Counted from the first letter of the stretch, positions 18,392 to 33,485 are shown. The stretch: 33,485 bases of DNA from an archaeon BMS3Abin16 (GCA_002923215.1 BDTI01000175.1:1-33485), one strand, 5' to 3'. Numbers and translations are program-made. The notes: a model not told the origin generated them from the letters alone.

Positions 18392-19118
18392 ATACAGTTC
18401 TCTCAGACAGAGGGATCTGCTGCTTGAAGGGTATAAAGCAGGGGCAACATCGATTGCAGGTCTTATCGCCTTTGGACGGGGCGAAGCCTTTGATTATCTT
18501 CTGGGCGAGAAAACCCCAAAGTCTGCGCTTCCGGCGATTGAAGCGTCTGCCGCGCTTCTTTTAACTGCTGAAAAACCGGTGATCTCGGTGAATGGTAATA
18601 CCACTGTATTATGTCCGCGCGAGCTTGTTGAACTCGCATCCACCCTTGGCGCAAAGCTTGAGATCAACCTTTTTTACAGGACAGAAGAACGGATTAAAGT
18701 GATTGAAACACTTCTTCGGCGAAACGGCGCAGACAAAGTTTACGGCGCGAGGCCTGACACCGAGGTTGCGGGGCTTGAAAGCGAGAGGCGGCGAGTCGAT
18801 TCAAAGGGCATAGCAAGCGCAGATGTAGTATTTGTGGCTCTTGAAGACGGCGACCGCACAGAGGCGCTTGTAAAGTCAGGAAAAAAGGTTATCGCCCTTG
18901 ATCTCAACCCACTCTCCCGCACCGCAAAAACCGCAGACATAACAATCGTTGATAACATCATCCGGGCTGTTCCTCTGCTTATAGAGACAGTGAAAAAACT
19001 GAAACACACCGATAAAGCTGAGCTTGAAAAAATAGTCTCAAACTATGACAACCAGAAAATCCTTAAGTCAGCAGTCACCGAAATACAGAGGAGCCTGAAA
19101 AAATCATCCACCCAGTAA
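18360..19118 (+). CDS. 4-phosphopantoate--beta-alanine ligase (archaeal phosphopantothenate synthetase, CoA pathway)
   Basis: IPKSHPRYSSLRQRDLL...GLIAFGRGEAFDYLLGEKT matches the conserved N-terminus of the archaeal PPS family (COG1701). The start may instead be the ATG at 18369. Confidence 0.8.
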   Translation: MLKMIPKSHPRYSSLRQRDLLLEGYKAGATSIAGLIAFGRGEAFDYLLGEKTPKSALPAIEASAALLLTAEKPVISVNGNTTVLCPRELVELASTLGAKLEINLFYRTEERIKVIETLLRRNGADKVYGARPDTEVAGLESERRRVDSKGIASADVVFVALEDGDRTEALVKSGKKVIALDLNPLSRTAKTADITIVDNIIRAVPLLIETVKKLKHTDKAELEKIVSNYDNQKILKSAVTEIQRSLKKSSTQ

Positions 19119-19124
19119 AAAAAG

Positions 19125-19496
19125 TCATCCTTCGAGAAGCCATCTCACGGTTTCAACCAGCTTCGCCCGTGAAATCGGCTTGTTCAAATGCCAGTTCGCA
19201 TGGGCAGACTCAAGACTCATAAGAGCGTCCATCGTCGTGGTCTTCGCTGTGAGCATGCAGATGATAATGTCTTTGAGCTTCTCATTTTCCTTGATCCGCC
19301 GTGAAACCTCCCAGCCATCCATTTCAGGCATCATAATATCTAGCAGGATAAGATCCGGCTTCACACCGCTGTAGAGAAGTCCGAGACACTCCTCACCGCT
19401 TGCCGCGGTTGTTACACTATGCCCCTCAGCCTCTAATGTGATCTTAACAAGAGTTGTTATCTCAGGATTGTCGTCTACAACCATAATATTTGCCAT
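19125..19496 (-). CDS. Stand-alone response-regulator receiver domain (CheY-like)
   Basis: From the ATG at 19496 (GGTGA lies 6-8 nt upstream) the protein reads MANIMVVDDNPE...LILLDIMMPEMDGWEV...MLTAK. It has the acidic pocket, the phospho-acceptor Asp and the conserved Thr/Lys. There is no output domain. Confidence 0.85.
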   Translation of the reverse strand: MANIMVVDDNPEITTLVKITLEAEGHSVTTAASGEECLGLLYSGVKPDLILLDIMMPEMDGWEVSRRIKENEKLKDIIICMLTAKTTTMDALMSLESAHANWHLNKPISRAKLVETVRWLLEG

Positions 19497-19509
19497 AATA
19501 ATTTCACCT

Positions 19510-19842
19510 TTATCTTGTGAGTTTAACACCCCAGTAAAATGCCACAAAAATCGCCACTAGCAAGAGTGGGATCACGATAAATGGGGATCTTGCGATTTCA
19601 ACTGCCTGGGCGAGTACAGTTCCCGCCGTGCCTGTGACTATGCCTGTGTCCACCTCTGACTGCCGACCGCTGTATTCACTCCAAACCAGAAAGAGCGCTC
19701 CAATCATCAAAACACCCGCAAAGAGTGTGAAAAGCGTTTTTCGACCTCTCTGCCCCTTTAAAACCTGAGACTCACATTCCATGCATAGAGGAGACCCTTG
19801 CGTAGATTTGCCACATATCTGACACTTATTCATAGGCTTCAT
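19510..19842 (-). CDS. Zinc-ribbon membrane protein (hypothetical)
   Basis: 110 aa. CQICGKSTQGSPLCMEC is a CxxC-x9-CxxC ribbon. It is followed by two hydrophobic helices. Its ATG overlaps the TGA of the upstream gene as ATGA at 19842-19839. Confidence 0.6.
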   Translation of the reverse strand: MKPMNKCQICGKSTQGSPLCMECESQVLKGQRGRKTLFTLFAGVLMIGALFLVWSEYSGRQSEVDTGIVTGTAGTVLAQAVEIARSPFIVIPLLLVAIFVAFYWGVKLTR

Positions 19843-20234
19843 TTTTTATTGAGATAATAATAGACTGTTGTAAGCGGTATGCCGAGGTCCTTTGAAATCT
19901 TCTTTGCACTGTAGCCTTTTTTCTTCAAGCCATATATGCCGTCGATCTTTGTATCAGCATGCATCCTGGGCCTACCCGGTGTGAGCAGAAGCGCTTCAAA
20001 CTTTACACCCACCTTTGAAAGGGCTTCTTTAATCTTTCGCGGCGTGCGCTCAAAAAGGCTCGGCGGACATGTGATAAGCTTAATCTTCGGAGCAGCGGTA
20101 AGAATAGATGCAACAATATTTATTGTCGGCCGAACGCTGAGATGCACCTTCTGAACATCAACATTTAGCTTGTCCTTAATCTCCTGCAGAAGAACCTCGT
20201 TTTGACTCGACCGAAGAACAATAATCTCCTCCAT
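19839..20234 (-). CDS. Hypothetical protein with a C-terminal HTH (possibly the archaeal DUF1699 family)
   Basis: 131 aa. The C-terminus GYSAKKISKDLGIPLTTVYYYLNKK is a resolvase/Hin-type HTH. The family name is from memory and is unverified. Confidence 0.6.
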   Translation of the reverse strand: MEEIIVLRSSQNEVLLQEIKDKLNVDVQKVHLSVRPTINIVASILTAAPKIKLITCPPSLFERTPRKIKEALSKVGVKFEALLLTPGRPRMHADTKIDGIYGLKKKGYSAKKISKDLGIPLTTVYYYLNKK

Positions 20235-20363
20235 AACATCTAATTCAAGTAGAGGTATAAAAATTTATTGTAAACACAACTGGCGTCAAGACCAAAAAAT
20301 AAAAATATGAAAGTGCCCCTCCGCCACCAGCTAATCACCGGGTGAAGCTTGAAAGGACAGATT

Positions 20364-21515
20364 TTAAACTGTCAGCCAATCCTCATAACGGACATTACGC
20401 GACTTCTTCTCACCCGTCATGCTGAGGATAATGTCTTTAACCGTTTTCACAGCCAGGGGATGAAGCATCATCATAATATCAGCGCCTGCCATGAGAACCG
20501 CTGTACCGGTCACGATCTCCCAAAGCGGACCCCGATGCTCACGGGGGCCCCATGCATCGTTATTGAGCCATGACTCGCGGGCGCCCCAGGCATTTGTGAC
20601 ACCGCATGAAATCGGCATCTGAAGCTCTTCATCACCCTTAAGCGCTCCGATCTTCATACGCTCAATAATCGAATAAGTATAGTCAAGGCCGTAGCCAAGT
20701 GCGCCGGTGGTCGGGTCCTGCACGATCTGATCCTGAGTAAGCCCTTCATCAAACAAAAGCCTGTTCAAGCTTTTCTGATCATTGATATTCATCGAAGTCC
20801 ATGAGAGGACGTTGTGCTTGTATTTGATCGCGGCTTGAGCAATCTTTTTGTAATCAAGATCAAGGTTTGCCGATGCAAGCAGGCATCTTTCACCCTCAGC
20901 CGCTTCAGCGCATTTCTCAAGGACCAAGGGGTCTTTTTCAGGTGTGCCTGAGCCTCCGATGACAAGGGGAACGTCAACAGCTTGAAGCACGTCTTCAACG
21001 GTCTTCGCAGCCTCCCTGGGACTTGAATCCTGATTATTCGGGTCAGTGGACGTGAGATGAATCGTAACAAGATCAGCACCCATCTTAACAGCTTTCTTCG
21101 CCCACTCCGCCGGGTCGTGCCACACATCTTCCACATGCTCGCGAATCGCGCGGGGAAGCGGCGGCGCAACGTCAAAGACATCAAAGGTTACAACAGGCCG
21201 GTTCACAATCCCGCCTTCAAACCAGTAGAGCGATTTCTGAGCGCCAAGCTTGACAACATGCTTGCGAGTCCCACCTTCAGACTTTGTAGCGCCAAGCTGA
21301 ACCTCGGCAACACTTCCTTTGTACTCACGAATCGGGACTTTGTATTCAAGGGGCGCAAGCTCTGGCGAAACACCGACACCTGCCACACTGGGCATGCCAG
21401 ATGCGATCAGCGCCTGCTGCACCTTTAGTATAAGCTCCTCAGTATCAATAGTCACATTCTCAAGCTCAATCTCATCAGCACCAGCAAAAGACGAAAGTAA
21501 CTCCTCAAGATTCAT
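20364..21515 (-). CDS. cdhD: Acetyl-CoA decarbonylase/synthase complex subunit delta (corrinoid Fe-S protein small subunit)
   Basis: 383 aa. It has long blocks shared with Methanosarcina CdhD: TIHLTSTDP, AAKTVEDVLQAVDVPLVIGGSG, GERCLLASANLDLDY, VLSWT, DPTTGALGYGLDY, TNAWGARESW, WGPREHRGPLWEIVTG and MMMLHP. Confidence 0.9.
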   Translation of the reverse strand: MNLEELLSSFAGADEIELENVTIDTEELILKVQQALIASGMPSVAGVGVSPELAPLEYKVPIREYKGSVAEVQLGATKSEGGTRKHVVKLGAQKSLYWFEGGIVNRPVVTFDVFDVAPPLPRAIREHVEDVWHDPAEWAKKAVKMGADLVTIHLTSTDPNNQDSSPREAAKTVEDVLQAVDVPLVIGGSGTPEKDPLVLEKCAEAAEGERCLLASANLDLDYKKIAQAAIKYKHNVLSWTSMNINDQKSLNRLLFDEGLTQDQIVQDPTTGALGYGLDYTYSIIERMKIGALKGDEELQMPISCGVTNAWGARESWLNNDAWGPREHRGPLWEIVTGTAVLMAGADIMMMLHPLAVKTVKDIILSMTGEKKSRNVRYEDWLTV

Positions 21516-21532
21516 AAGGGCTCATCTAAGCG

Positions 21533-22135
21533 TTATTCTATATAATTATTATTGTCACCGACGATTTCCTCTTCTTCCACATACCAGTCTCTGCTTGCCA
21601 TGTATCCTGCGATGAATCCGATGATAAGTCCTACGAGGTGTGCGAGAAAACCGGTTGCCGCTGCGAGGAAAAAGAAGACAAAGCCGTAGAGCATCGAGCT
21701 CCATATGCCGTTTGTGTAGACTCCGCGTTGAGCTGAGAGGTCTGCTCCAAGCAGGCCGTATATCGCGCCTGACGACCCGGCTGATATCGTGTCCAGAGGA
21801 TAGAGGAATGAGACAGATGTGGTTGCAAGTCCGAACAATAGGTAGAATAAAAGTGTTCGGCTTCGTCCGAATAGAGCTTCTGCCTTGGATCCGAAGAATG
21901 CGAGAAACAACATGTTATAGCCCAAGTGCGGGAAGTCGAAGTGTGTGAACATGTTCGTAACTATCTGATAGTACGCGCCTCCGAGAAACCGTTCAGTTAC
22001 AAAGCCGTATCGCTCCATGAGCCCTGTGTCGATTACCAGTATGTTACGACTCTGAATCGCGAGATAGATGTAGAATAGAATGTTAACTGTGAGCAAGGCA
22101 TATGTTACGATGGGCCGGGACTCGTCTCGCGACAT
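21533..22135 (-). CDS. Rhomboid-family intramembrane serine protease
   Basis: 200 aa with six hydrophobic helices. The TM2 motif is THFDFPHLGYNMLFL (HxxxxHxxxN). The catalytic GxSG is AGSSGAIYGL. The catalytic His block is AHLVGLIIG. Confidence 0.85.
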   Translation of the reverse strand: MSRDESRPIVTYALLTVNILFYIYLAIQSRNILVIDTGLMERYGFVTERFLGGAYYQIVTNMFTHFDFPHLGYNMLFLAFFGSKAEALFGRSRTLLFYLLFGLATTSVSFLYPLDTISAGSSGAIYGLLGADLSAQRGVYTNGIWSSMLYGFVFFFLAAATGFLAHLVGLIIGFIAGYMASRDWYVEEEEIVGDNNNYIE

Positions 22136-27857: not shown

Positions 27858-29138
27858 TCAGTCACCAAATTCAATGTATTCATAGGCCTTCTGACCCTTA
27901 GTAAAAGAGAAATTTAAGGTAGTAAAATCGCGCCTGAAATCAATCACTTCCTGCTTAACGCTCTTGTCATCTATGACCACATTCTTTATAAATTCTGCTA
28001 TCACTTCCATCTCACCTTCGCACATGCCGAGCCGTGTAAGCTCCTGCGTGCCGATTCTGATTCCTGACGGATCAACAGACTTGTCCAGCCTGTCCCATGA
28101 AAGCAGGTTCTTGTTAATGATGATATTGTTTTCTTCAAGGGCCTTTGCAACCCTGGTGCCCTTACCATGGTGTGTCACGTCTACAAGCACCTGATGAGAT
28201 TCTGTAAAACCCTTGTGTTCGCAGAGCACCTCAAAGCCTCTCTCATATAAAGCTTCTGCCAATGCTTTAGCATTCGCAATGGTCTGCGCCGCATAATCCT
28301 CGCCGAACTCAAGCATCTCGGCAAGGGCTACTGCAAGACCCGCGAGGTGATGGAGGTGATGGTTTGAAACAACACCTGGAAACACCGCGTTATCAATCTT
28401 TTCTTTGAGTCTATCTGAATCTGTAAATAAAATTCCGCCCTGAGGCCCTGGAAAAGTCTTGTGCCGGCTGCTAGCCATAATATCCGCGCCTTCTTTGAGC
28501 GGCTTTTGAAACTGTCCGCCAGCGATTAATCCGAGCACGTGGGCTGCGTCATAGCCGATACTTGCGCCCACTTCATCGGCAGCCGCGCGAAGCTCACTCA
28601 CTGGATGAGGGAATAGGAACACGCTTCCGCCGAAATATAGAAACTTAGGTTTTTCGACAAGTATGGCTTTCTGTGTTGCATCCACGTCAATATTCATCTC
28701 ACGAGGGTCGAAGATAAAGTTCTTCACCTTAAGATCCATCACACCTGCAGCCGATATCCGGGAGTGACTGATATGCCCGCCATCAGGCACATGCAGGCTC
28801 ATCATAGTATCACCGCTTCGGCCGAGCGCCGTGTAGGCAGCGAGATTTGCCACAACACCTGAAGTAGCCTGCACGTTCACGTGTTTTGCGTTGAAAAGCT
28901 GCCTGCCAAGCTTCTTTGTGAGCTTTTCAATCTCATCAATATAAGTGCACCCCTGATAATACCGCTCGCCCGGCTGCCCCTCAGCATACCGGTGGGAAAG
29001 ATCGGTTGCCATCATCTCCCTCACAGCGTGGCTTGTAACATTTTCAGAGGCGATCAGGGGCAGACACTCATCCATCCACTGGTGATGGGCTTTAACGATC
29101 GTGCGAATATTTTCTGCTACCTCAGCGTTCTTGCTCAT
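27858..29138 (-). CDS. glyA: Serine hydroxymethyltransferase
   Basis: 426 aa. [18 protein letters not shown] and the PLP-lysine region [13 protein letters not shown] are present. Confidence 0.95.
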
Positions 29139-29144
29139 ACTGTA

Positions 29145-29759
29145 TCAACTCGATTTAATTTCATTTTTTATCTGCTCTGCCGCGCCACGGGGATCTGGGC
29201 TGTTGCAGATTGCGCGCCCGATGATTTCGAAATCCGCGCCTGCAGATATGGCAGATCCAACCTCTGCGCCCTGGGCTTTCACGCCAGGAGATATGACTAT
29301 CAGGTCTCCTATGATACTCCTAAGGGTTTTTATGGTTTGCGGTCGCGTGGCAGGTGCGACAATTCCCTCGGCAAACCCTGCGGCGTGAGACGCGATTTCA
29401 CGGTTATGCCCTGAGATATAGTCGAGGGCGCCGGGATGGCTCATGTCAGAGACCACGAATAGGCTGGCTTCTTTGCTGCATGCCTCGACAACATCACGCC
29501 CCATTACTCCCTGGACGATTACGAAGTCTGCGCCTGCCTCTGTTGCGAGCCTGCATATCTCTGCGCTTACATGGGGCACGTCGGCAACCTTGAAATCCGC
29601 GATAATCGGCAGGTTGAATTGCTTGAGTTCAGTTATCACATCCAGTCCCGCTGACAGCACCAGCGGATAGCCAACTTTGATTGCGTCAATATATTCAGCG
29701 GTTTGCCCTACTACTTCAACCGCCCGCTTTGTTCCATTCACGTCAAGCGCCAGAATCAC
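29145..29759 (-). CDS. pyrF: Orotidine 5'-phosphate decarboxylase
   Basis: 204 aa with a GTG start. ILALDV, IKVGYPL, IADFKVADVPH (DxKxxD) and VISPGVKAQG align closely with the archaeal PyrF I know. The reading frame is open a further 16 codons upstream, with no canonical start there. Confidence 0.9.
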   Translation of the reverse strand: MILALDVNGTKRAVEVVGQTAEYIDAIKVGYPLVLSAGLDVITELKQFNLPIIADFKVADVPHVSAEICRLATEAGADFVIVQGVMGRDVVEACSKEASLFVVSDMSHPGALDYISGHNREIASHAAGFAEGIVAPATRPQTIKTLRSIIGDLIVISPGVKAQGAEVGSAISAGADFEIIGRAICNSPDPRGAAEQIKNEIKSS

Positions 29760-29918
29760 GCCGGCCCTTCTCAGCTTTAACAGGTCTTTTCCATCTATAG
29801 TAACAGCTCCCTAAACCGCAATAAACCCTGGTATATAATAAGTTTTTCGCAGGGCCCGGTGTAGAGAATTGTGTGAGAGATTATTTATAATGACGCGGAT
29901 TTATACATAAGAAGGAGC

Positions 29919-30251
29919 ATGAAAATCTTTAATTTACATGGGCTGGCTGAAGAGTCTGAAGGCGAATATGTGCTGGGTCTTAAAGACCTCAGTACCCATG
30001 CGGTGTACATTGTATATGGTTTTTTAGAGCCAGGCGAAACTGGTAGAAAGGTGCTTCCGGGAAAGGGGCATGAAGAGATACTCTGCGCGGTGAAAGGCGA
30101 GGTCAGGGTTAAAACACCGGGTGAAACTTTCACGCTCAAATCCGGTGAAGCCGTGCATGTGAAAGAAGAAGATGAATGGACACTGGAAAACACAGGCGAT
30201 GAAACCGTTTTTTACATACTAGCAGGCGGACACCCGCCGAAAAAACACTAA
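29919..30251 (+). CDS. Cupin-domain protein
   Basis: 110 aa. GKGHEEILCAVKGEVRV....FTLKSGEAVHV.....TLENTGDETVFYI is a cupin_2 two-motif pattern. A GGAG Shine-Dalgarno sequence sits just upstream of the ATG. Confidence 0.75.
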   Translation: MKIFNLHGLAEESEGEYVLGLKDLSTHAVYIVYGFLEPGETGRKVLPGKGHEEILCAVKGEVRVKTPGETFTLKSGEAVHVKEEDEWTLENTGDETVFYILAGGHPPKKH

Positions 30252-30259
30252 TAATATCA

Positions 30260-30325
30260 TTATTCTTTCACCCGCTCTTTCAGTTTCGTAATCCTGTCGA
30301 GCACAAAGCTGGCATTATGGTAGAT
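30260..30325 (-). pseudogene. Relic of a UvrB C-terminal (UVR-domain) coding end; no start codon, about 22 codons
   Basis: The minus strand reads ...YHNASFVLDRITKLKERVKE-TAA (stop at 30262-30260). The live uvrB end reads ...FERAIALRDRVVKLKERIGE-TAA (stop at 31775-31773). Aligned by hand from the stop codons, 36 of 54 nt are identical, including a perfect 12-mer (CTCTTTCAGTTT), in the same frame. Confidence 0.5.
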
Positions 30326-30341
30326 ATTAAATAGTCTAAAG

Positions 30342-30349
30342 TTTAATAT
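30342..30349 (+). promoter_or_regulatory. TATA-like element (TTTAATAT) for the three-gene cassette
   Basis: Centred about 26 nt upstream of the ATG at 30371, consistent with a leaderless first gene. Confidence 0.3.
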
Positions 30350-30370
30350 TGGCGAAAAAGAGTGAAACTT

Positions 30371-30673
30371 ATGGCAACGATGGATTGTTCATTGAAATGT
30401 TCTCTAACAGAGGGGAAATCTGCCATTAAAAGAGCACTTACTGAACTCAGCTGGCAGGTAGAGGAAGAATCTGCAGATTGGATAAAAGCATCAACACAAG
30501 GCACGATATGGTCATGTGGGGAAAATATAGAGATTTACATTTCTTCTCAGGTTAGTCAAATCAATGTTTCAATCAACTCCGTCCCAAAATGGCAGTTCCT
30601 TGATTGGGGAAAGAGCGAAGAAAATGTCAAACTATTATATGATACAATATTAGAGATGGCGTTGGATGGGTGA
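30371..30673 (+). CDS. Small soluble protein (100 aa), family not recognised; first gene of the cassette
   Basis: ATG at 30371 (the ORF track uses a GTG at 30362). Translation is MATMDCSLKCSLTEGKSAIKRALTELSWQVEEESADWIKASTQGTIWSCGENIEIYISSQVSQINVSINSVPKWQFLDWGKSEENVKLLYDTILEMALDG. It alternates helix and strand patterns and has no TM segment. Confidence 0.65.
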   Translation: MATMDCSLKCSLTEGKSAIKRALTELSWQVEEESADWIKASTQGTIWSCGENIEIYISSQVSQINVSINSVPKWQFLDWGKSEENVKLLYDTILEMALDG

Positions 30674-30679
30674 AATTGC

Positions 30680-31030
30680 ATGAAGTTATATGTCGCTTGT
30701 AAGTATTGCAGGAAAAAAATCTACTTCAATAGTCCTGCGAAAATAAGAGCAGAATTGCCCTATCTGTTCAATCTACAGTGCCAACAACCTAACTGCCACC
30801 CCCATGTAGGGCATCAGATTTATGGTCGAGGCGAGATCTATAATAGATCAGAGGTAAAGGCTGAATTGGGGATAAGTGGTTTAGTGGGAGGTGCTCTTGT
30901 TACTGGCATTCTTGGAGGACTGGTTGCAGGGCCAATTGGATTACTACTTGGTGGTGCTCTAGGTGGGGGTGTTGGTTCGGCTTCTGACCAGACAGACAGA
31001 GAAGCGGTAGAGAGGTTCAATGCATCATGA
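30680..31030 (+). CDS. Zinc-ribbon protein with a C-terminal glycine-zipper membrane segment (hypothetical)
   Basis: 116 aa. CKYC...CQQPNC is a CxxC-x23-Cx4C ribbon. GISGLVGGALVTGILGGLVAGPIGLLLGGALGGGVG is a long GxxxG-repeat glycine zipper. GGTGA lies 6 nt upstream of the ATG. Confidence 0.7.
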   Translation: MKLYVACKYCRKKIYFNSPAKIRAELPYLFNLQCQQPNCHPHVGHQIYGRGEIYNRSEVKAELGISGLVGGALVTGILGGLVAGPIGLLLGGALGGGVGSASDQTDREAVERFNAS

Positions 31031-31719
31031 TAGAATGGGTGGGATACCTCCGAACTTCTATTAATTTATACTACATAATCCCAGGTGTTTTTGCGTTAGT
31101 AGTTTTTTGGGTACAATTTAGCGAGAGAAACACCAAGATCATGCCCCTTTTTCTTCAGATAAGCGGAATTTTTTCGTTTATCTTATCAATAGAATATTCT
31201 GCTATCATACTATTACTCGATCGGCCTTTGCCGGCACCATTAAGTACATTCGACAAAGGTCTTGCTGGAGTAGCGTTGATTATTATTTTATTAATCGGAT
31301 TCCACTATTCCACTGAAGGTACAAAACTTGGCAACTGGCTATCGAATATATTAGACAACCACATCTCATGGCGTGTCCCTGTTCCCGTCCCAGTTTCTCT
31401 TTTAGATGAACAATTGGAAAAATTAAGGGAGGTAAGAGAGGCCATTAATACAGGTGAGGAGAGCCAGTTGGAGCCAGCATGTCAGACTGTTCTTGAAAGT
31501 TGTGCAGGCGTCTCGATTTTATTGCAAGAAGTCACACATAGGCGTGGCGAAGAGATAAAACTATCAATTGAAAAGTGTAAACATGAGTTCCAAGAACTAA
31601 GCTCATTCCCTTCCCTCCAGCAAAGACGAAAATCATCTAACTCACTTTCAGACTTAATAGGTGTATTGAATGCAACAACGAGAATACTCGATACACCAGA
31701 TATGACAAAACCGAATTAA
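31027..31719 (+). CDS. Membrane protein with three N-terminal TM helices and a C-terminal helical soluble domain of about 120 aa (hypothetical)
   Basis: 230 aa. The helices are YYIIPGVFALVVFWVQF, MPLFLQISGIFSFILSIEYSAIILLL and GLAGVALIIILLIGFHY. A VPVPVPV linker and a charged helical region follow. Its ATG overlaps the TGA of the previous gene as ATGA at 31027-31030. Confidence 0.7.
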   Translation: MIEWVGYLRTSINLYYIIPGVFALVVFWVQFSERNTKIMPLFLQISGIFSFILSIEYSAIILLLDRPLPAPLSTFDKGLAGVALIIILLIGFHYSTEGTKLGNWLSNILDNHISWRVPVPVPVSLLDEQLEKLREVREAINTGEESQLEPACQTVLESCAGVSILLQEVTHRRGEEIKLSIEKCKHEFQELSSFPSLQQRRKSSNSLSDLIGVLNATTRILDTPDMTKPN

Positions 31720-31772
31720 TCAGACTCAAATTATACTCTTTAATTGATTTATCAGCTCATAGAAAGTAAAAA

Positions 31773-33485
31773 TTATTCTCCAATCCTCTCTTTCAGTTTT
31801 ACTACCCTGTCGCGCAGTGCAATCGCTCTTTCGAAGTCCAGTTTGTCCGCTGCCTCGCGCATCTCAGCTTCAAGCACTGTTATCATCTCTGGAACCGCCG
31901 TCTTCGGAATGTGTTTCGTGTCTGTTAAGTCAACCTCTTTTTCACGCACCGGCTTGACAATCGTTTCAGGCACTATACCGTGTTTTTTATTGTAGTTTAG
32001 CTGAAGCTTGCGCCTGCGCTCAGTCTCAGAAAGCGCGGCGCAGATCGAATCCGTAATCCGGTCAGCATATAGCACCACCCTGCTGTTCACGTTCCGAGCG
32101 GCACGACCGATGATCTGAATCAAGCTCCGGGCGTCCCGTAGAAATCCCTCTTTATCAGCGTCGAGTATGCCGATAAAACCCACCTCCGGTATATCAAGTC
32201 CCTCCCTGAGCAGGTTTATCCCTACGAGGACATCGAATCTGCCCAGCCTTAGCTGTCTGATGATCTCGGTGCGCTCTAGAGTATCGACTTCTGAGTGAAG
32301 ATACCGCGCCTTAATCTGTTGGTCTGCCAGATACTCGGTTAGCTCCTCGGCAAGCCTCTTGGTAAGCGTTGTCACAAGCACACGATCCCCGCGGCTGATA
32401 GTGGATCGGATCTCAGCCAAGAGATCCGCTATCTGCCCCTCGATGGGCCGCACTTCGACGACTGGGTCAATGAGCCCTGTGGGCCTGATTATCTGCTCAA
32501 CAATCTGCGACGACATATCCCGCTCGTAGCGCGCTGGCGTTGCCGAGACAAAAATAGCCTGTTTCATATACTTTTCAAACTCCTCAAAGCGCAGAGGCCT
32601 GTTGTCAAAAGCAGAGGGCAGCCTGAAGCCGTAGTCCACGAGCGCTTTTTTGCGCGAGTAGTCGCCGTTGTACATGCCGTGAACCTGGGGAATCGTCTGA
32701 TGGCTTTCATCGATAAACATGAGAAAGTCCTCCGGGAAATAGTCGAGCAGACAATAAGGCGGCTCACCCTGTTTTCGCCCGTCAAAATGACGGCTGTAGT
32801 TTTCAATACCCTTACAGTAACCGGTTTCCTCGATCATCTCAATGTCATATAGCGTGCGCTGCCTCAGCCGATGCGCCTCAAGTAGGTCCAGCTCGGGCAG
32901 CCGCTTCTCAAGCTCGGCTCTGATGGAATCAATCGCCTTTTGTTTCTCATCGTCAGCGATTACAAAGTGCCGCGCTGGATAGACAAAATAATATTTGAAC
33001 TCCTCAACCAGCTCGCCCGTGACCTTATCAATCTCCCGGATCCGCTCCACAGTGTCGCCGAACAACTCAACCCTGATTATGTTATTATAATATCCCGGCA
33101 CGATGTCGATTGTCCCGCCTTTCACACGGAACCGGCCAGGCGCAAGGTCGAGGTCATTTCGCTCATACTGCACGTCCACAAGCCGTCTGAGCAGGTCGTT
33201 TCGCTTGACACGCTCGCCGACTTGTAGCTCGAATCCGAGGCGCTGGAAGTTCTCAGGATTACCCAGGCCGTAGATGCATGAGACCGAGGCTACAACAATC
33301 GTGTCGCGCCTGCTCATGAGCGACGCTGTAGCGCTTAGCCTGAGCATCTCGATCTTCGGGTTCACAGCCGCGTCTTTTTCAATATATTGGTCTTTCTGCG
33401 GCAGATAGGATTCAGGCTGATAATAATCATAATAGGAGACGAAATACTCCACCCGGTTGTCTGGGAAAAACTCAGTGAACTCGTT
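31773..33485 (-). CDS. uvrB: Excinuclease ABC subunit B (5' end lies beyond the window)
   Basis: The frame is open to the window edge (NEFTEFFPDNRVEYFVSYYDYYQPE...). The DESH box appears as FIDESHQT. Helicase motifs TLTKRLAEELT, GINLLREGLDIPEV and QIIGRAARN are present. The C-terminal UVR domain reads DKLDFERAIALRDRVVKLKERIGE. Confidence 0.95.
   Translation of the reverse strand, partial: NEFTEFFPDNRVEYFVSYYDYYQPESYLPQKDQYIEKDAAVNPKIEMLRLSATASLMSRRDTIVVASVSCIYGLGNPENFQRLGFELQVGERVKRNDLLRRLVDVQYERNDLDLAPGRFRVKGGTIDIVPGYYNNIIRVELFGDTVERIREIDKVTGELVEEFKYYFVYPARHFVIADDEKQKAIDSIRAELEKRLPELDLLEAHRLRQRTLYDIEMIEETGYCKGIENYSRHFDGRKQGEPPYCLLDYFPEDFLMFIDESHQTIPQVHGMYNGDYSRKKALVDYGFRLPSAFDNRPLRFEEFEKYMKQAIFVSATPARYERDMSSQIVEQIIRPTGLIDPVVEVRPIEGQIADLLAEIRSTISRGDRVLVTTLTKRLAEELTEYLADQQIKARYLHSEVDTLERTEIIRQLRLGRFDVLVGINLLREGLDIPEVGFIGILDADKEGFLRDARSLIQIIGRAARNVNSRVVLYADRITDSICAALSETERRRKLQLNYNKKHGIVPETIVKPVREKEVDLTDTKHIPKTAVPEMITVLEAEMREAADKLDFERAIALRDRVVKLKERIGE

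What the first reader, a model, noticed from the sequence alone, without database searches (positions are those of the whole stretch)
30260..31838. Second, decayed copy of the uvrB 3' terminus lies 1.45 kb beyond the real one and brackets the cassette
The functional uvrB ends at 31775-31773 with ...FERAIALRDRVVKLKERIGE-TAA. At 30325-30260, on the same strand, is an orphan reading ...YHNASFVLDRITKLKERVKE-TAA. It has no start codon. Anchored on the stop codons, 36 of 54 nt match, including the perfect block CTCTTTCAGTTT, and the substitutions are conservative and in frame. The cassette lies exactly between the two copies. This pattern is expected when an element integrates into the 3' end of a gene, supplies a replacement terminus and displaces the original one. 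That is well known for elements targeting tRNA and protein-gene 3' ends. It dates the cassette as an acquisition and marks its borders. No integrase is present, so the element is either a remnant or was moved in trans.
Basis: seen in the sequence. Interest (0 to 1): 0.62.

Follow-up and report, generated by a model that had tools for sequence, protein, structure and literature searches.

The report
Insertion scar beside archaeal uvrB gene
A 1.5-kb block of three foreign genes sits between the ends of the uvrB and cupin genes of an uncultured marine archaeon, and a 45-base leftover of a second uvrB gene end marks its border; this is a clear but ordinary recombination scar.

Summary
Window 30259-30303 and 31772-31816 form an imperfect 45-nt direct repeat (34/45), both anchored on TAA stops. 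It is the best non-self match in the window, and no shuffle out of 20000 reaches its score.

The repeat brackets a low-GC, recombinase-less cassette of three genes. Two related genomes (L002, L093) and at least two strain variants in the same metagenome study have "empty" sites. There the uvrB stop abuts the cupin stop and only one terminus is present. In one sample the two forms have similar depth.

The working uvrB terminus is the one that matches the empty sites (40/45 nt to L002, same 13 residues). The orphan is not a decayed copy. It is an in-frame fragment of another uvrB allele, and its central 20 nt are identical to the functional terminus of a sister strain.

A conspecific strain that is 97-99.7% identical up to the cupin stop is only 83% identical in the uvrB 3' end. 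The whole block therefore behaves as an allele exchanged by homologous recombination.

Best reading: a scar of att-like insertion at the uvrB 3' end, with the recombinase acting in trans. One-sided illegitimate recombination is a close rival. This is a known kind of feature, of modest interest.

The parts
29919..30251 (+). Cupin_2 gene (110 aa), the left flank. It converges on uvrB, and its stop codon is the left edge of the strain-variable block.
   Evidence: Pfam Cupin_2. 87% nt identity to L002 and L092, 77% to L093. 98.9% to strain X4 up to 30249.
30252..30259 (.). 8-nt spacer (TAATATCA) between the cupin stop and the orphan stop. L002 has a spacer of the same length but unrelated sequence.
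   Evidence: Read from the sequence; alignment with L002.
30260..30303 (-). Orphan uvrB 3' terminus, the left copy of the 45-nt direct repeat (30259-30303). It reads (V)LDRITKLKERVKE-TAA and is a fragment of a second uvrB allele.
   Evidence: 34/45, 0/20000 shuffles. 20 nt (30272-30291) are identical to the functional terminus of a sister strain. No usable start codon.
30304..30370 (.). Cassette 5' non-coding region with an A/T-rich TATA-like stretch (AAGTTTAATATTGG) about 25 nt before the ORF1 ATG.
   Evidence: Read from the sequence. Promoter function is inferred only.
30371..30673 (+). Cassette ORF1 (100 aa from the ATG; 103 aa from GTG at 30362). No known family.
   Evidence: One homologue at 51% identity, in the same three-gene arrangement.
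30680..31030 (+). Cassette ORF2 (116 aa): N-terminal CxxC...Cx4C zinc ribbon, a glycine-zipper membrane segment and a conserved AVERFNxS tail.
   Evidence: Alignment A4, 48-59% identity across six loci with four invariant Cys. Weak glycine-zipper/C19orf12 Pfam hits below the cut-off.
31027..31719 (+). Cassette ORF3 (230 aa): membrane helices in the N-terminal half and a four-helix bundle in the C-terminal half. Its start overlaps the ORF2 stop (ATGA).
   Evidence: Ten representatives at 25-37% identity. AlphaFold model with pLDDT 67. Only generic helical-bundle matches.
31720..31771 (.). Cassette 3' non-coding region. On the uvrB strand a T5 run directly follows the uvrB stop.
   Evidence: Read from the sequence.
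31772..31816 (-). Resident uvrB terminus, the right copy of the direct repeat: ...LRDRVVKLKERIGE-TAA. This is the copy that matches empty sites.
   Evidence: 40/45 nt and 13/13 residues identical to L002.
31773..33485 (-). uvrB (excinuclease ABC subunit B). It runs off the window end.
   Evidence: Pfam UvrB_inter, Helicase_C, UvrB and UVR domains. 92% aa identity to L002.
30250..32100 (.). Strain-variable block: spacer, orphan, cassette and about 330 nt of the uvrB 3' end. It is linked as one allele, and the alternative allele is an empty site with a 17%-divergent uvrB end.
   Evidence: In run X1 the cassette contig 30209-32114 has depth 12.9, the empty joint 14.8 and the flanks 20-25. X4 is 97-99.7% identical to the left but 83% in 31793-32006. 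The right edge is approximate.

Best explanation
The orphan is a genuine 45-nt fragment of a uvrB 3' end that belongs to a different allele from the resident one. Together the two copies form an imperfect direct repeat that exactly brackets a 1468-bp, low-GC cassette of three genes with no recombinase. The cassette was inserted at the point where uvrB and a cupin gene converge.

Proposed history:
- Inferred: a small circular DNA carrying the cassette plus a roughly 45-bp uvrB-terminus-like attachment segment recombined with the 3' end of a chromosomal uvrB. This is an att-type, Campbell-like insertion by a recombinase supplied in trans, as for integrase-less cis-mobilisable elements.
- Inferred: the crossover lay at the stop-codon end of the segment, in the shared ATTATTCT block. 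uvrB therefore kept its own terminus, and the element-borne copy ended up next to the cupin gene.
- Shown: the whole block (orphan, cassette and about 330 nt of uvrB) now segregates in the natural population against an empty-site allele. Its left edge is the cupin stop codon.
- Inferred: this distribution arose by ordinary homologous recombination in the flanking genes.

The orphan has no coding role. It may still supply the oligo-T 3' region of the cupin transcript, which at empty sites lies in antisense uvrB (speculative).
For: - The repeat is significant and sits exactly at the insert borders.
- Empty sites carry one terminus: L002, L093, X2 contig 11, and one shared allele in X4, X6 and X1 contigs. 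None carries a second copy.
- Cassette GC is 0.37-0.43 against 0.50-0.56 in the flanks.
- The resident copy matches the empty sites and the orphan does not: 40/45 against 28/45 to L002.
- The orphan shares a 20-nt identical stretch, and 5 of 5 co-located differences, with an intact sister-strain terminus ...DRVTKLKERIKGE* (P about 1.3e-4).
- The orphan is closer to the window's own terminus (33/45 on the in-frame register) than any of the 81 archaeal UvrB termini from the fetched loci is to it (best 28/45). Its source was therefore a close relative.
- A 45-bp repeat matches the reported length of archaeal att sites (29-69 bp, median 45). Insertion into 3'-distal parts of protein genes is documented (PMC6563490).
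- The same ORF2-ORF3 module occurs in unrelated neighbourhoods, so it moves.
- The population shows both forms, and the block is a recombination unit.
Against: - No integrase or transposase is in the cassette or among the 38 window ORFs scanned against Pfam.
- No circular or excised form was seen. Only assembled contigs were available, not reads.
- Homologous cassettes in L082 and L083 show no flanking repeats.
- No viral or MGE contig carries the orphan-type sequence or ORF2.
- With the crossover at the stop codon, the element's uvrB-like arm has no obvious use.
- The two copies share only 8-, 12- and 7-nt identical blocks, so the crossover point cannot be fixed.
- Which copy is native rests on parsimony from two genomes and a few short contigs.
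Confidence: 0.4

Rival explanations
1. One-sided (homology-facilitated) illegitimate recombination. Incoming DNA from a relative carried the cassette lying downstream of its own uvrB. It paired by homology inside uvrB, and its other end joined illegitimately 45 nt before the stop of the recipient's uvrB. The recipient's last 45 nt stayed behind as the orphan. The repeat has no att function.
For: - No recombinase is present.
- The two copies are different alleles.
- The uvrB 3' end is a mosaic. It is 17% divergent between conspecific strains, and outgroup states are split about evenly.
- The block's right edge lies inside uvrB at about 32100.
- Homologous cassettes elsewhere have no flanking repeats.
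- Similarity of the orphan to uvrB stops abruptly at 30303.
Against: - The closest genomic background (X4, 97-99.7%) has a terminus of neither type (..VKLRERIREK*). The event would have to be older and in another lineage, followed by import of the block.
- The mechanism is documented mainly for naturally transformable bacteria (own knowledge) and was not tested here.
- It does not predict the typical att length of 45 nt.
Confidence: 0.27
2. An element integrated 45 nt inside the uvrB 3' end and supplied the present functional terminus. The orphan is the displaced native end of the lineage in which this happened.
For: - This is the classical logic of elements that target gene 3' ends. An archaeal example supplies a new stop codon (PMC6563490).
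- An orphan-like patch exists in the functional uvrB of a sister strain, so such a native end is plausible.
- The orphan keeps the same 8-nt spacing from the cupin stop as the L002 empty site.
Against: - The functional terminus is 40/45 nt and 13/13 residues identical to L002's native terminus, and is contiguous with a stretch 98% identical to L002.
- L093 and the other empty-site alleles are also of the resident type.
- The orphan is only 28/45 to L002.
- The conserved Arg of the LRD motif is Leu in the orphan.
Confidence: 0.17
3. Target-site duplication of the resident terminus at insertion, followed by neutral decay of the non-coding copy.
For: - The divergence of 11-12/45 is not impossible. 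Four-fold degenerate sites are only 68-72% identical between the window and L002.
- The orphan shares the window-specific TAA stop with the resident copy.
Against: - Five of the orphan's differences coincide in position and base with a functional allele of another strain (P about 1e-4).
- There is no frameshift or stop.
- The changes are clustered in whole codons.
- There are no terminal inverted repeats and no transposase.
- 45 bp is far longer than usual duplications.
Confidence: 0.05
4. Chance similarity, or the orphan belongs to another gene or RNA.
For: None beyond the short length.
Against: - 0 of 20000 shuffles reach the score, and it is the best hit in the window.
- It lies in register with the stop codon and exactly at the insert border defined by empty sites.
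- No ORF, Rfam family or tRNA covers it.
Confidence: 0.01

Closest known systems
attL/attR repeats of archaeal integrated elements inserted in the 3'-distal part of protein-coding genes (Krupovic et al. 2019, PMC6563490)
   Same: Direct repeats flank a foreign, compositionally distinct insert at the 3' end of a housekeeping gene. Relatives have a single copy at the empty site. The repeat length of 45 bp equals the reported median for crenarchaeal att sites.
   Different: There is no integrase. The insert is only 1.5 kb, against 2.6-98 kb for the smallest to largest reported cryptic elements. The repeats are only 76% identical. The gene's own terminus appears to be retained rather than replaced.
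Integrase-less cis-mobilisable elements (CIMEs) flanked by att sites and moved by a related element's integrase (own knowledge, streptococcal ICE literature; not checked here)
   Same: A short cargo block bounded by att-like repeats with no recombinase of its own.
   Different: No helper element or integrase was identified. Archaeal examples are not known to me. Mobilisation was not shown.
Homology-facilitated illegitimate recombination in transformable bacteria (own knowledge, de Vries and Wackernagel 2002; not checked here)
   Same: Foreign DNA is anchored by homology on one side (uvrB) and joined illegitimately on the other. This can leave a stub of the recipient gene.
   Different: It has not been demonstrated in archaea of this group. 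It predicts no particular repeat length.
Variable 'hotspot' islands between conserved core genes, exchanged by flanking homologous recombination (own knowledge, bacterial defence-island hotspot literature)
   Same: The same flanking genes carry different contents in different strains: this cassette, another insert in L092, or nothing. Divergence is elevated and mosaic in the flanking gene end.
   Different: The cargo here has no recognised defence or other function. The island is a single tiny operon.

Membership tests
Site-specific integrative element at a gene 3' end (att duplication) | Direct repeats (attL/attR) exactly at the borders of the insert | tested here: met
   30259-30303 and 31772-31816, 34/45 identical, at the borders defined by the empty sites.
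Site-specific integrative element at a gene 3' end (att duplication) | A single att copy at empty sites in relatives | tested here: met
   L002, L093 and contigs from X1, X2, X4 and X6. No second copy.
Site-specific integrative element at a gene 3' end (att duplication) | Integrase or recombinase gene within the element | tested here: not met
   The three ORFs have no Pfam, NCBIfam, PADLOC or PHROG recombinase hit. None was found among the 38 window ORFs scanned.
Site-specific integrative element at a gene 3' end (att duplication) | The element-derived sequence reconstitutes the target gene's 3' end | tested here: not met
   The functional terminus matches the native termini of empty sites: 40/45 nt and 13/13 aa to L002.
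Site-specific integrative element at a gene 3' end (att duplication) | Excision to a circular form, or a precise empty site in the same strain | not testable with these tools
   Only assembled contigs of the runs were available. The empty joints seen belong to a different uvrB allele.
Transposon or casposon with target-site duplication | Terminal inverted repeats and a transposase or casposase | tested here: not met
   No terminal inverted repeats at the cassette ends. No transposase.
Transposon or casposon with target-site duplication | Short duplication that is identical at the time of insertion | tested here: not met
   45 nt at 76% identity. The differences match another functional allele.
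Strain-variable hotspot island exchanged by flanking homologous recombination | The same conserved flanking genes with different or no cargo among close relatives | tested here: met
   The cassette (window, L001, L094, X1); a different insert after the same cupin gene (L092); empty sites (L002, L093, X1, X2, X4, X6).
Strain-variable hotspot island exchanged by flanking homologous recombination | Recombination breakpoints and excess divergence in the flanking gene ends | tested here: met
   X4 is 97-99.7% identical to the left, 98.9% up to the cupin stop, and 83% in uvrB 31793-32006. Depth shows two alleles between about 30250 and 32100.
UvrB C-terminal (UVR) coding sequence, as the identity of the orphan | In-frame similarity to the extreme UvrB C-terminus, anchored on the stop codon | tested here: met
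   LDRITKLKERVKE* against RDRVVKLKERIGE*. 20 nt are identical to a functional sister allele.
UvrB C-terminal (UVR) coding sequence, as the identity of the orphan | The conserved F-E-x-A-I-x-L-R-D motif upstream, as in an intact UVR domain | tested here: not met
   The orphan reads YHNASFVLD, and nucleotide similarity is at chance level beyond 45 nt. Only a fragment is present.

The most novel reading that the evidence does not exclude
The three-gene cassette belongs to a class of tiny, recombinase-less cargo units. These would spread among archaeal strains by carrying a roughly 45-bp mimic of a housekeeping gene's 3' end, used as an attachment or homology arm. Host or helper recombination would place them just past the stop codon without harming the gene. 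The ORF2-ORF3 pair (zinc ribbon with glycine zipper, plus a membrane four-helix-bundle protein) would be an undescribed membrane-acting module such as a toxin or defence system.
Probability: 0.1. Interest if true: 0.6.

Novelty: new member of a known kind. Interest (0 to 1): 0.33.

Why it matters
The locus gives a clean, population-level example of how small cargo enters an archaeal chromosome at the junction of two convergent housekeeping genes. The filled and empty alleles coexist in one sample, and the insertion scar records a second uvrB allele.

It also corrects an attractive but unsupported story, that the element replaced the gene's end. It shows that a 'decayed duplicate' can instead be a fragment of a different allele.

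Practical value:
- The borders of the acquired DNA are fixed to the base.
- The uvrB 3' end is flagged as a recombination mosaic, which is a caution for phylogenies that use uvrB.
- A small conserved two-gene module of unknown function is singled out as a candidate for functional testing.

None of this overturns current understanding.

Tried and rejected
- Flanking direct repeats around the homologous cassettes in L082 and L083. An eyeballed similarity in L083 was not significant.
- Terminal inverted repeats at the cassette ends: none.
- Rfam at gathering and E-value thresholds, and tRNA/tmRNA scans, for the orphan and the whole window: nothing.
- Pfam, NCBIfam, PADLOC and PHROGs for the three cassette proteins: only sub-threshold glycine-zipper noise.
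- AlphaFold model of ORF3 and a PDB fold search: only generic four-helix bundles.
- Viral/MGE contig scans for the orphan-type 18-mer and for ORF2: nothing.
- RNA-seq runs: none listed.
- A search for the L092 insert in the X runs: absent.
- A chimeric UvrB C-terminus query for proteins with the orphan-type end: only a distant ...KITKLKERIQ protein, plus the window strain itself.
- Further ORF3 homologue contexts (L095, L096): too short to be useful.
- An apparent frameshift in the sister-strain terminus was my own one-base indexing error. It was corrected with the loose-end sequence.
- Divergence level alone cannot reject 'duplication plus decay'. The shared-state test can.
Full report
**1. 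The observation**

uvrB lies on the minus strand and ends ...RDRVVKLKERIGE-TAA at 31775-31773. On the same strand, 30325-30260 reads ...YHNASFVLDRITKLKERVKE-TAA. Anchored on the stop codons, 36/54 and 31/42 nt match.

The best local alignment is ungapped, 30259-30303 against 31772-31816, with 34/45 identical and a spacing of 1513 nt. It is the best non-self hit of the uvrB terminus anywhere in the window on either strand (score 16.5, next best 11.5). None of 20000 dinucleotide-preserving shuffles reaches it.

Further upstream the similarity drops to chance (8/22), so the repeat is 45 nt long. The orphan frame is open for 42 codons but has only GTG codons at 14 and 3 codons before the stop, so it is not a gene. 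No Rfam family or tRNA covers it.

Three independent assemblies reproduce the arrangement: L094 (100% over 30112-32246), L001 (99.9%), and a 1906-nt contig in run X1.

**2. What lies between the copies**

Three same-strand ORFs occupy 30371-30673, 30680-31030 and 31027-31719. The last two overlap by ATGA. GC is 0.37-0.43 against 0.50-0.56 in the flanks. None of the three hits a Pfam, NCBIfam, PADLOC or PHROG family above threshold.

- ORF2 has a CxxC...Cx4C zinc ribbon, a glycine-zipper membrane segment and a conserved AVERFNxS tail. It is 48-59% identical across six loci.
- ORF3 belongs to a small family of ten representatives at 25-37% identity. The model has membrane helices followed by a four-helix bundle (pLDDT 67), and structure matches are uninformative.
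- The ORF2-ORF3 pair, with or without an ORF1, recurs in unrelated neighbourhoods. Examples are next to a non-uvrB gene in L083, next to a Fic gene in L090, and others.
- Nothing in viral contigs resembles it.

The cassette is therefore a mobile cargo module of unknown function. The rest of the window is ordinary archaeal housekeeping: AlaRS, HemA/B, AroA/C, QueC, CdhD, SHMT and PyrF. No integrase or transposase was found among the 38 ORFs scanned.

**3. Empty sites**

The closest genome is L002 (QIDD01000080.1, a Methanobacteriota MAG; UvrB 92% aa). It aligns to window 31774-33485 and to 28501-30286 with nothing between. The uvrB stop is followed after 8 nt by the cupin stop, and only one terminus is present. 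A more distant metagenome contig, L093 (77% nt), shows the same layout with a 3-nt gap. Neither has a second copy.

In the marine metagenome study that holds the window strain, contigs of related strains join 30249 directly to the uvrB end (X2, X4, X6 and X1). In run X1 the cassette contig has depth 12.9, the empty joint 14.8 and the shared flanks 20-25. Filled and empty alleles therefore coexist in one sample.

L092 has the same cupin gene followed by a different insert, so the junction is a variable spot.

**4. Which copy is which**

Termini, written in the gene's orientation:

| Source | Terminus |
|---|---|
| Resident copy | CTG CGC GAC AGG GTA GTA AAA CTG AAA GAG AGG ATT GGA GAA TAA |
| L002 | CTC CGT GAC CGG GTA GTA AAA CTG AAA GAG AGG ATT GGG GAA TAG |
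| Orphan | GTG CTC GAC AGG ATT ACG AAA CTG AAA GAG CGG GTG AAA GAA TAA |

- On this in-frame 45-nt register (30260-30304 against 31773-31817), the resident copy is 40/45 identical to L002 and encodes the same 13 residues. The orphan is 28/45 to L002 and 33/45 to the resident copy.
- The L093, X2 and X4 termini (..RIGGE*..RIGEK*..RIREK*) are also of the resident type.
- The functional end is therefore the lineage-typical one. Nothing indicates that it was supplied by the element.

**5. The orphan is not a decayed copy**

A sister strain (contigs in X3 and X6; uvrB 85% identical over 108 nt) has an intact terminus ...AIALRDRVTKLKERIKGE*. Twenty nucleotides of it (TTACGAAACTGAAAGAGCGG) are identical to orphan 30272-30291.

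Of the orphan's 12 differences from the resident copy, five coincide in position and base with that allele. The chance probability is about 1.3e-4. The orphan has no frameshift or stop.

The divergence level alone would not exclude duplication followed by drift, because four-fold degenerate sites are 68-72% identical between the window and L002. The shared states do argue against it.

Among the 81 archaeal UvrB termini from the fetched loci, none matches the orphan as well as the window's own terminus does (best 28/45, against 33/45). The orphan's source was therefore a close relative. The orphan is best described as a 45-nt fragment of another uvrB allele from the same species complex.

**6. 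The block is a recombination unit**

Run X4 (1.16 Mb, single-genome-like) is 97-99.7% identical to the window over 14.8-30.2 kb and 98.9% identical up to the cupin stop. It is only 83% identical in uvrB 31793-32006. Run X5 is the window strain itself.

At the sites where X4 and the window differ, outgroups side with each about equally. These are two old alleles of the uvrB 3' end.

Contig depths in X1 place the variable block between about 30250 and about 32100. It comprises the spacer, orphan, cassette and roughly 330 nt of uvrB. The present distribution is therefore due to homologous recombination in the flanks. The event that created the repeat happened earlier, possibly in another lineage.

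**7. Mechanism**

Shown:
- an imperfect 45-bp direct repeat sits exactly at the borders of a foreign insert;
- empty sites have a single copy;
- the two copies are different alleles;
- no recombinase is present;
- filled and empty alleles are polymorphic in the population.

Inferred, my preferred reading (0.40): an att-type, Campbell-like insertion of a small circle carrying the cassette and a uvrB-terminus-like segment. The recombinase acted in trans, and the crossover lay at the stop-codon end (shared ATTATTCT), so the gene kept its own end. The 45-bp length equals the reported median of archaeal att sites, and insertion into 3'-distal parts of protein genes is documented (PMC6563490).

Rivals:
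- One-sided illegitimate recombination that left the recipient's last 45 nt behind (0.27). It fits the lack of a recombinase and the mosaic uvrB end.
- Duplication plus decay (0.05).
- Chance (0.01).

I could not separate the first three with assembled contigs only.

**8. Comparison and verdict**

The feature works like an attL/attR scar of an integrated element at a gene's 3' end. It does not qualify as a member of that class, because it has no integrase and the gene end is not element-derived. It meets the tested criteria of a strain-variable hotspot island exchanged by flanking recombination.

It is a new member of a known kind. The cassette's ORF2-ORF3 module is the only part that might hide new biology.

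Noticed in passing
window 29760-29853: The first 94 nt of the pyrF-cupin intergenic region are 99% identical to L002 and L092, although the neighbouring genes are only about 87% identical. L093 keeps 43 nt at 91%. This is a strongly conserved non-coding element (promoter/regulatory site or small RNA) with no Rfam match.
   Followed up: partly
window 31773-32100: The last ~330 nt of uvrB are a mosaic. They are 83% identical between conspecific strains that are 97-99.7% identical elsewhere, and at least six different C-terminal peptide endings occur among close relatives. uvrB 3' ends are unsafe phylogenetic markers here.
   Followed up: partly
L092 1773-2070: A related contig has the same cupin gene followed not by uvrB but by a different sequence with a 62-aa minus-strand ORF of no known family. 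This is a second kind of insert at the same junction, and its far end is not on the contig.
   Followed up: partly
L082, L083, L084-L091 (cassette homologues): A conserved two-gene module (a ~110-aa zinc-ribbon/glycine-zipper protein plus a ~220-250-aa membrane/four-helix-bundle protein) occurs in unrelated contexts. One copy lies beside a Fic/DOC gene (L090). An ORF1-like gene is present in only some copies. No function is known.
   Followed up: partly
window 30250-30264: The cupin stop, the spacer and the orphan stop form a 15-nt A/T palindrome, AATAAT-ATC-ATTATT. It is followed by T-rich runs inside the orphan, so it is a possible 3'-end or termination signal for the cupin transcript.
   Followed up: no
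window 19299-19361: Contigs from four runs break here with many different continuations, and depth roughly doubles over 18822-19488. The site is inside a response-regulator receiver gene, which suggests a multi-copy paralogous segment.
   Followed up: no
window 18954-21528 and 21528-21568: Strain X4 is only 95% identical here, against over 99% on either side. X4 and X3 contigs also skip 39 nt between the CdhD and rhomboid genes. This is another recombination tract or indel polymorphism.
   Followed up: no
L094 1-144 (beyond window 32246): The ENA contig is 100% identical to the window up to 32246 and then continues with 144 nt that do not match the window's uvrB. It is either an assembly chimera or another strain breakpoint inside uvrB.
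   Followed up: no
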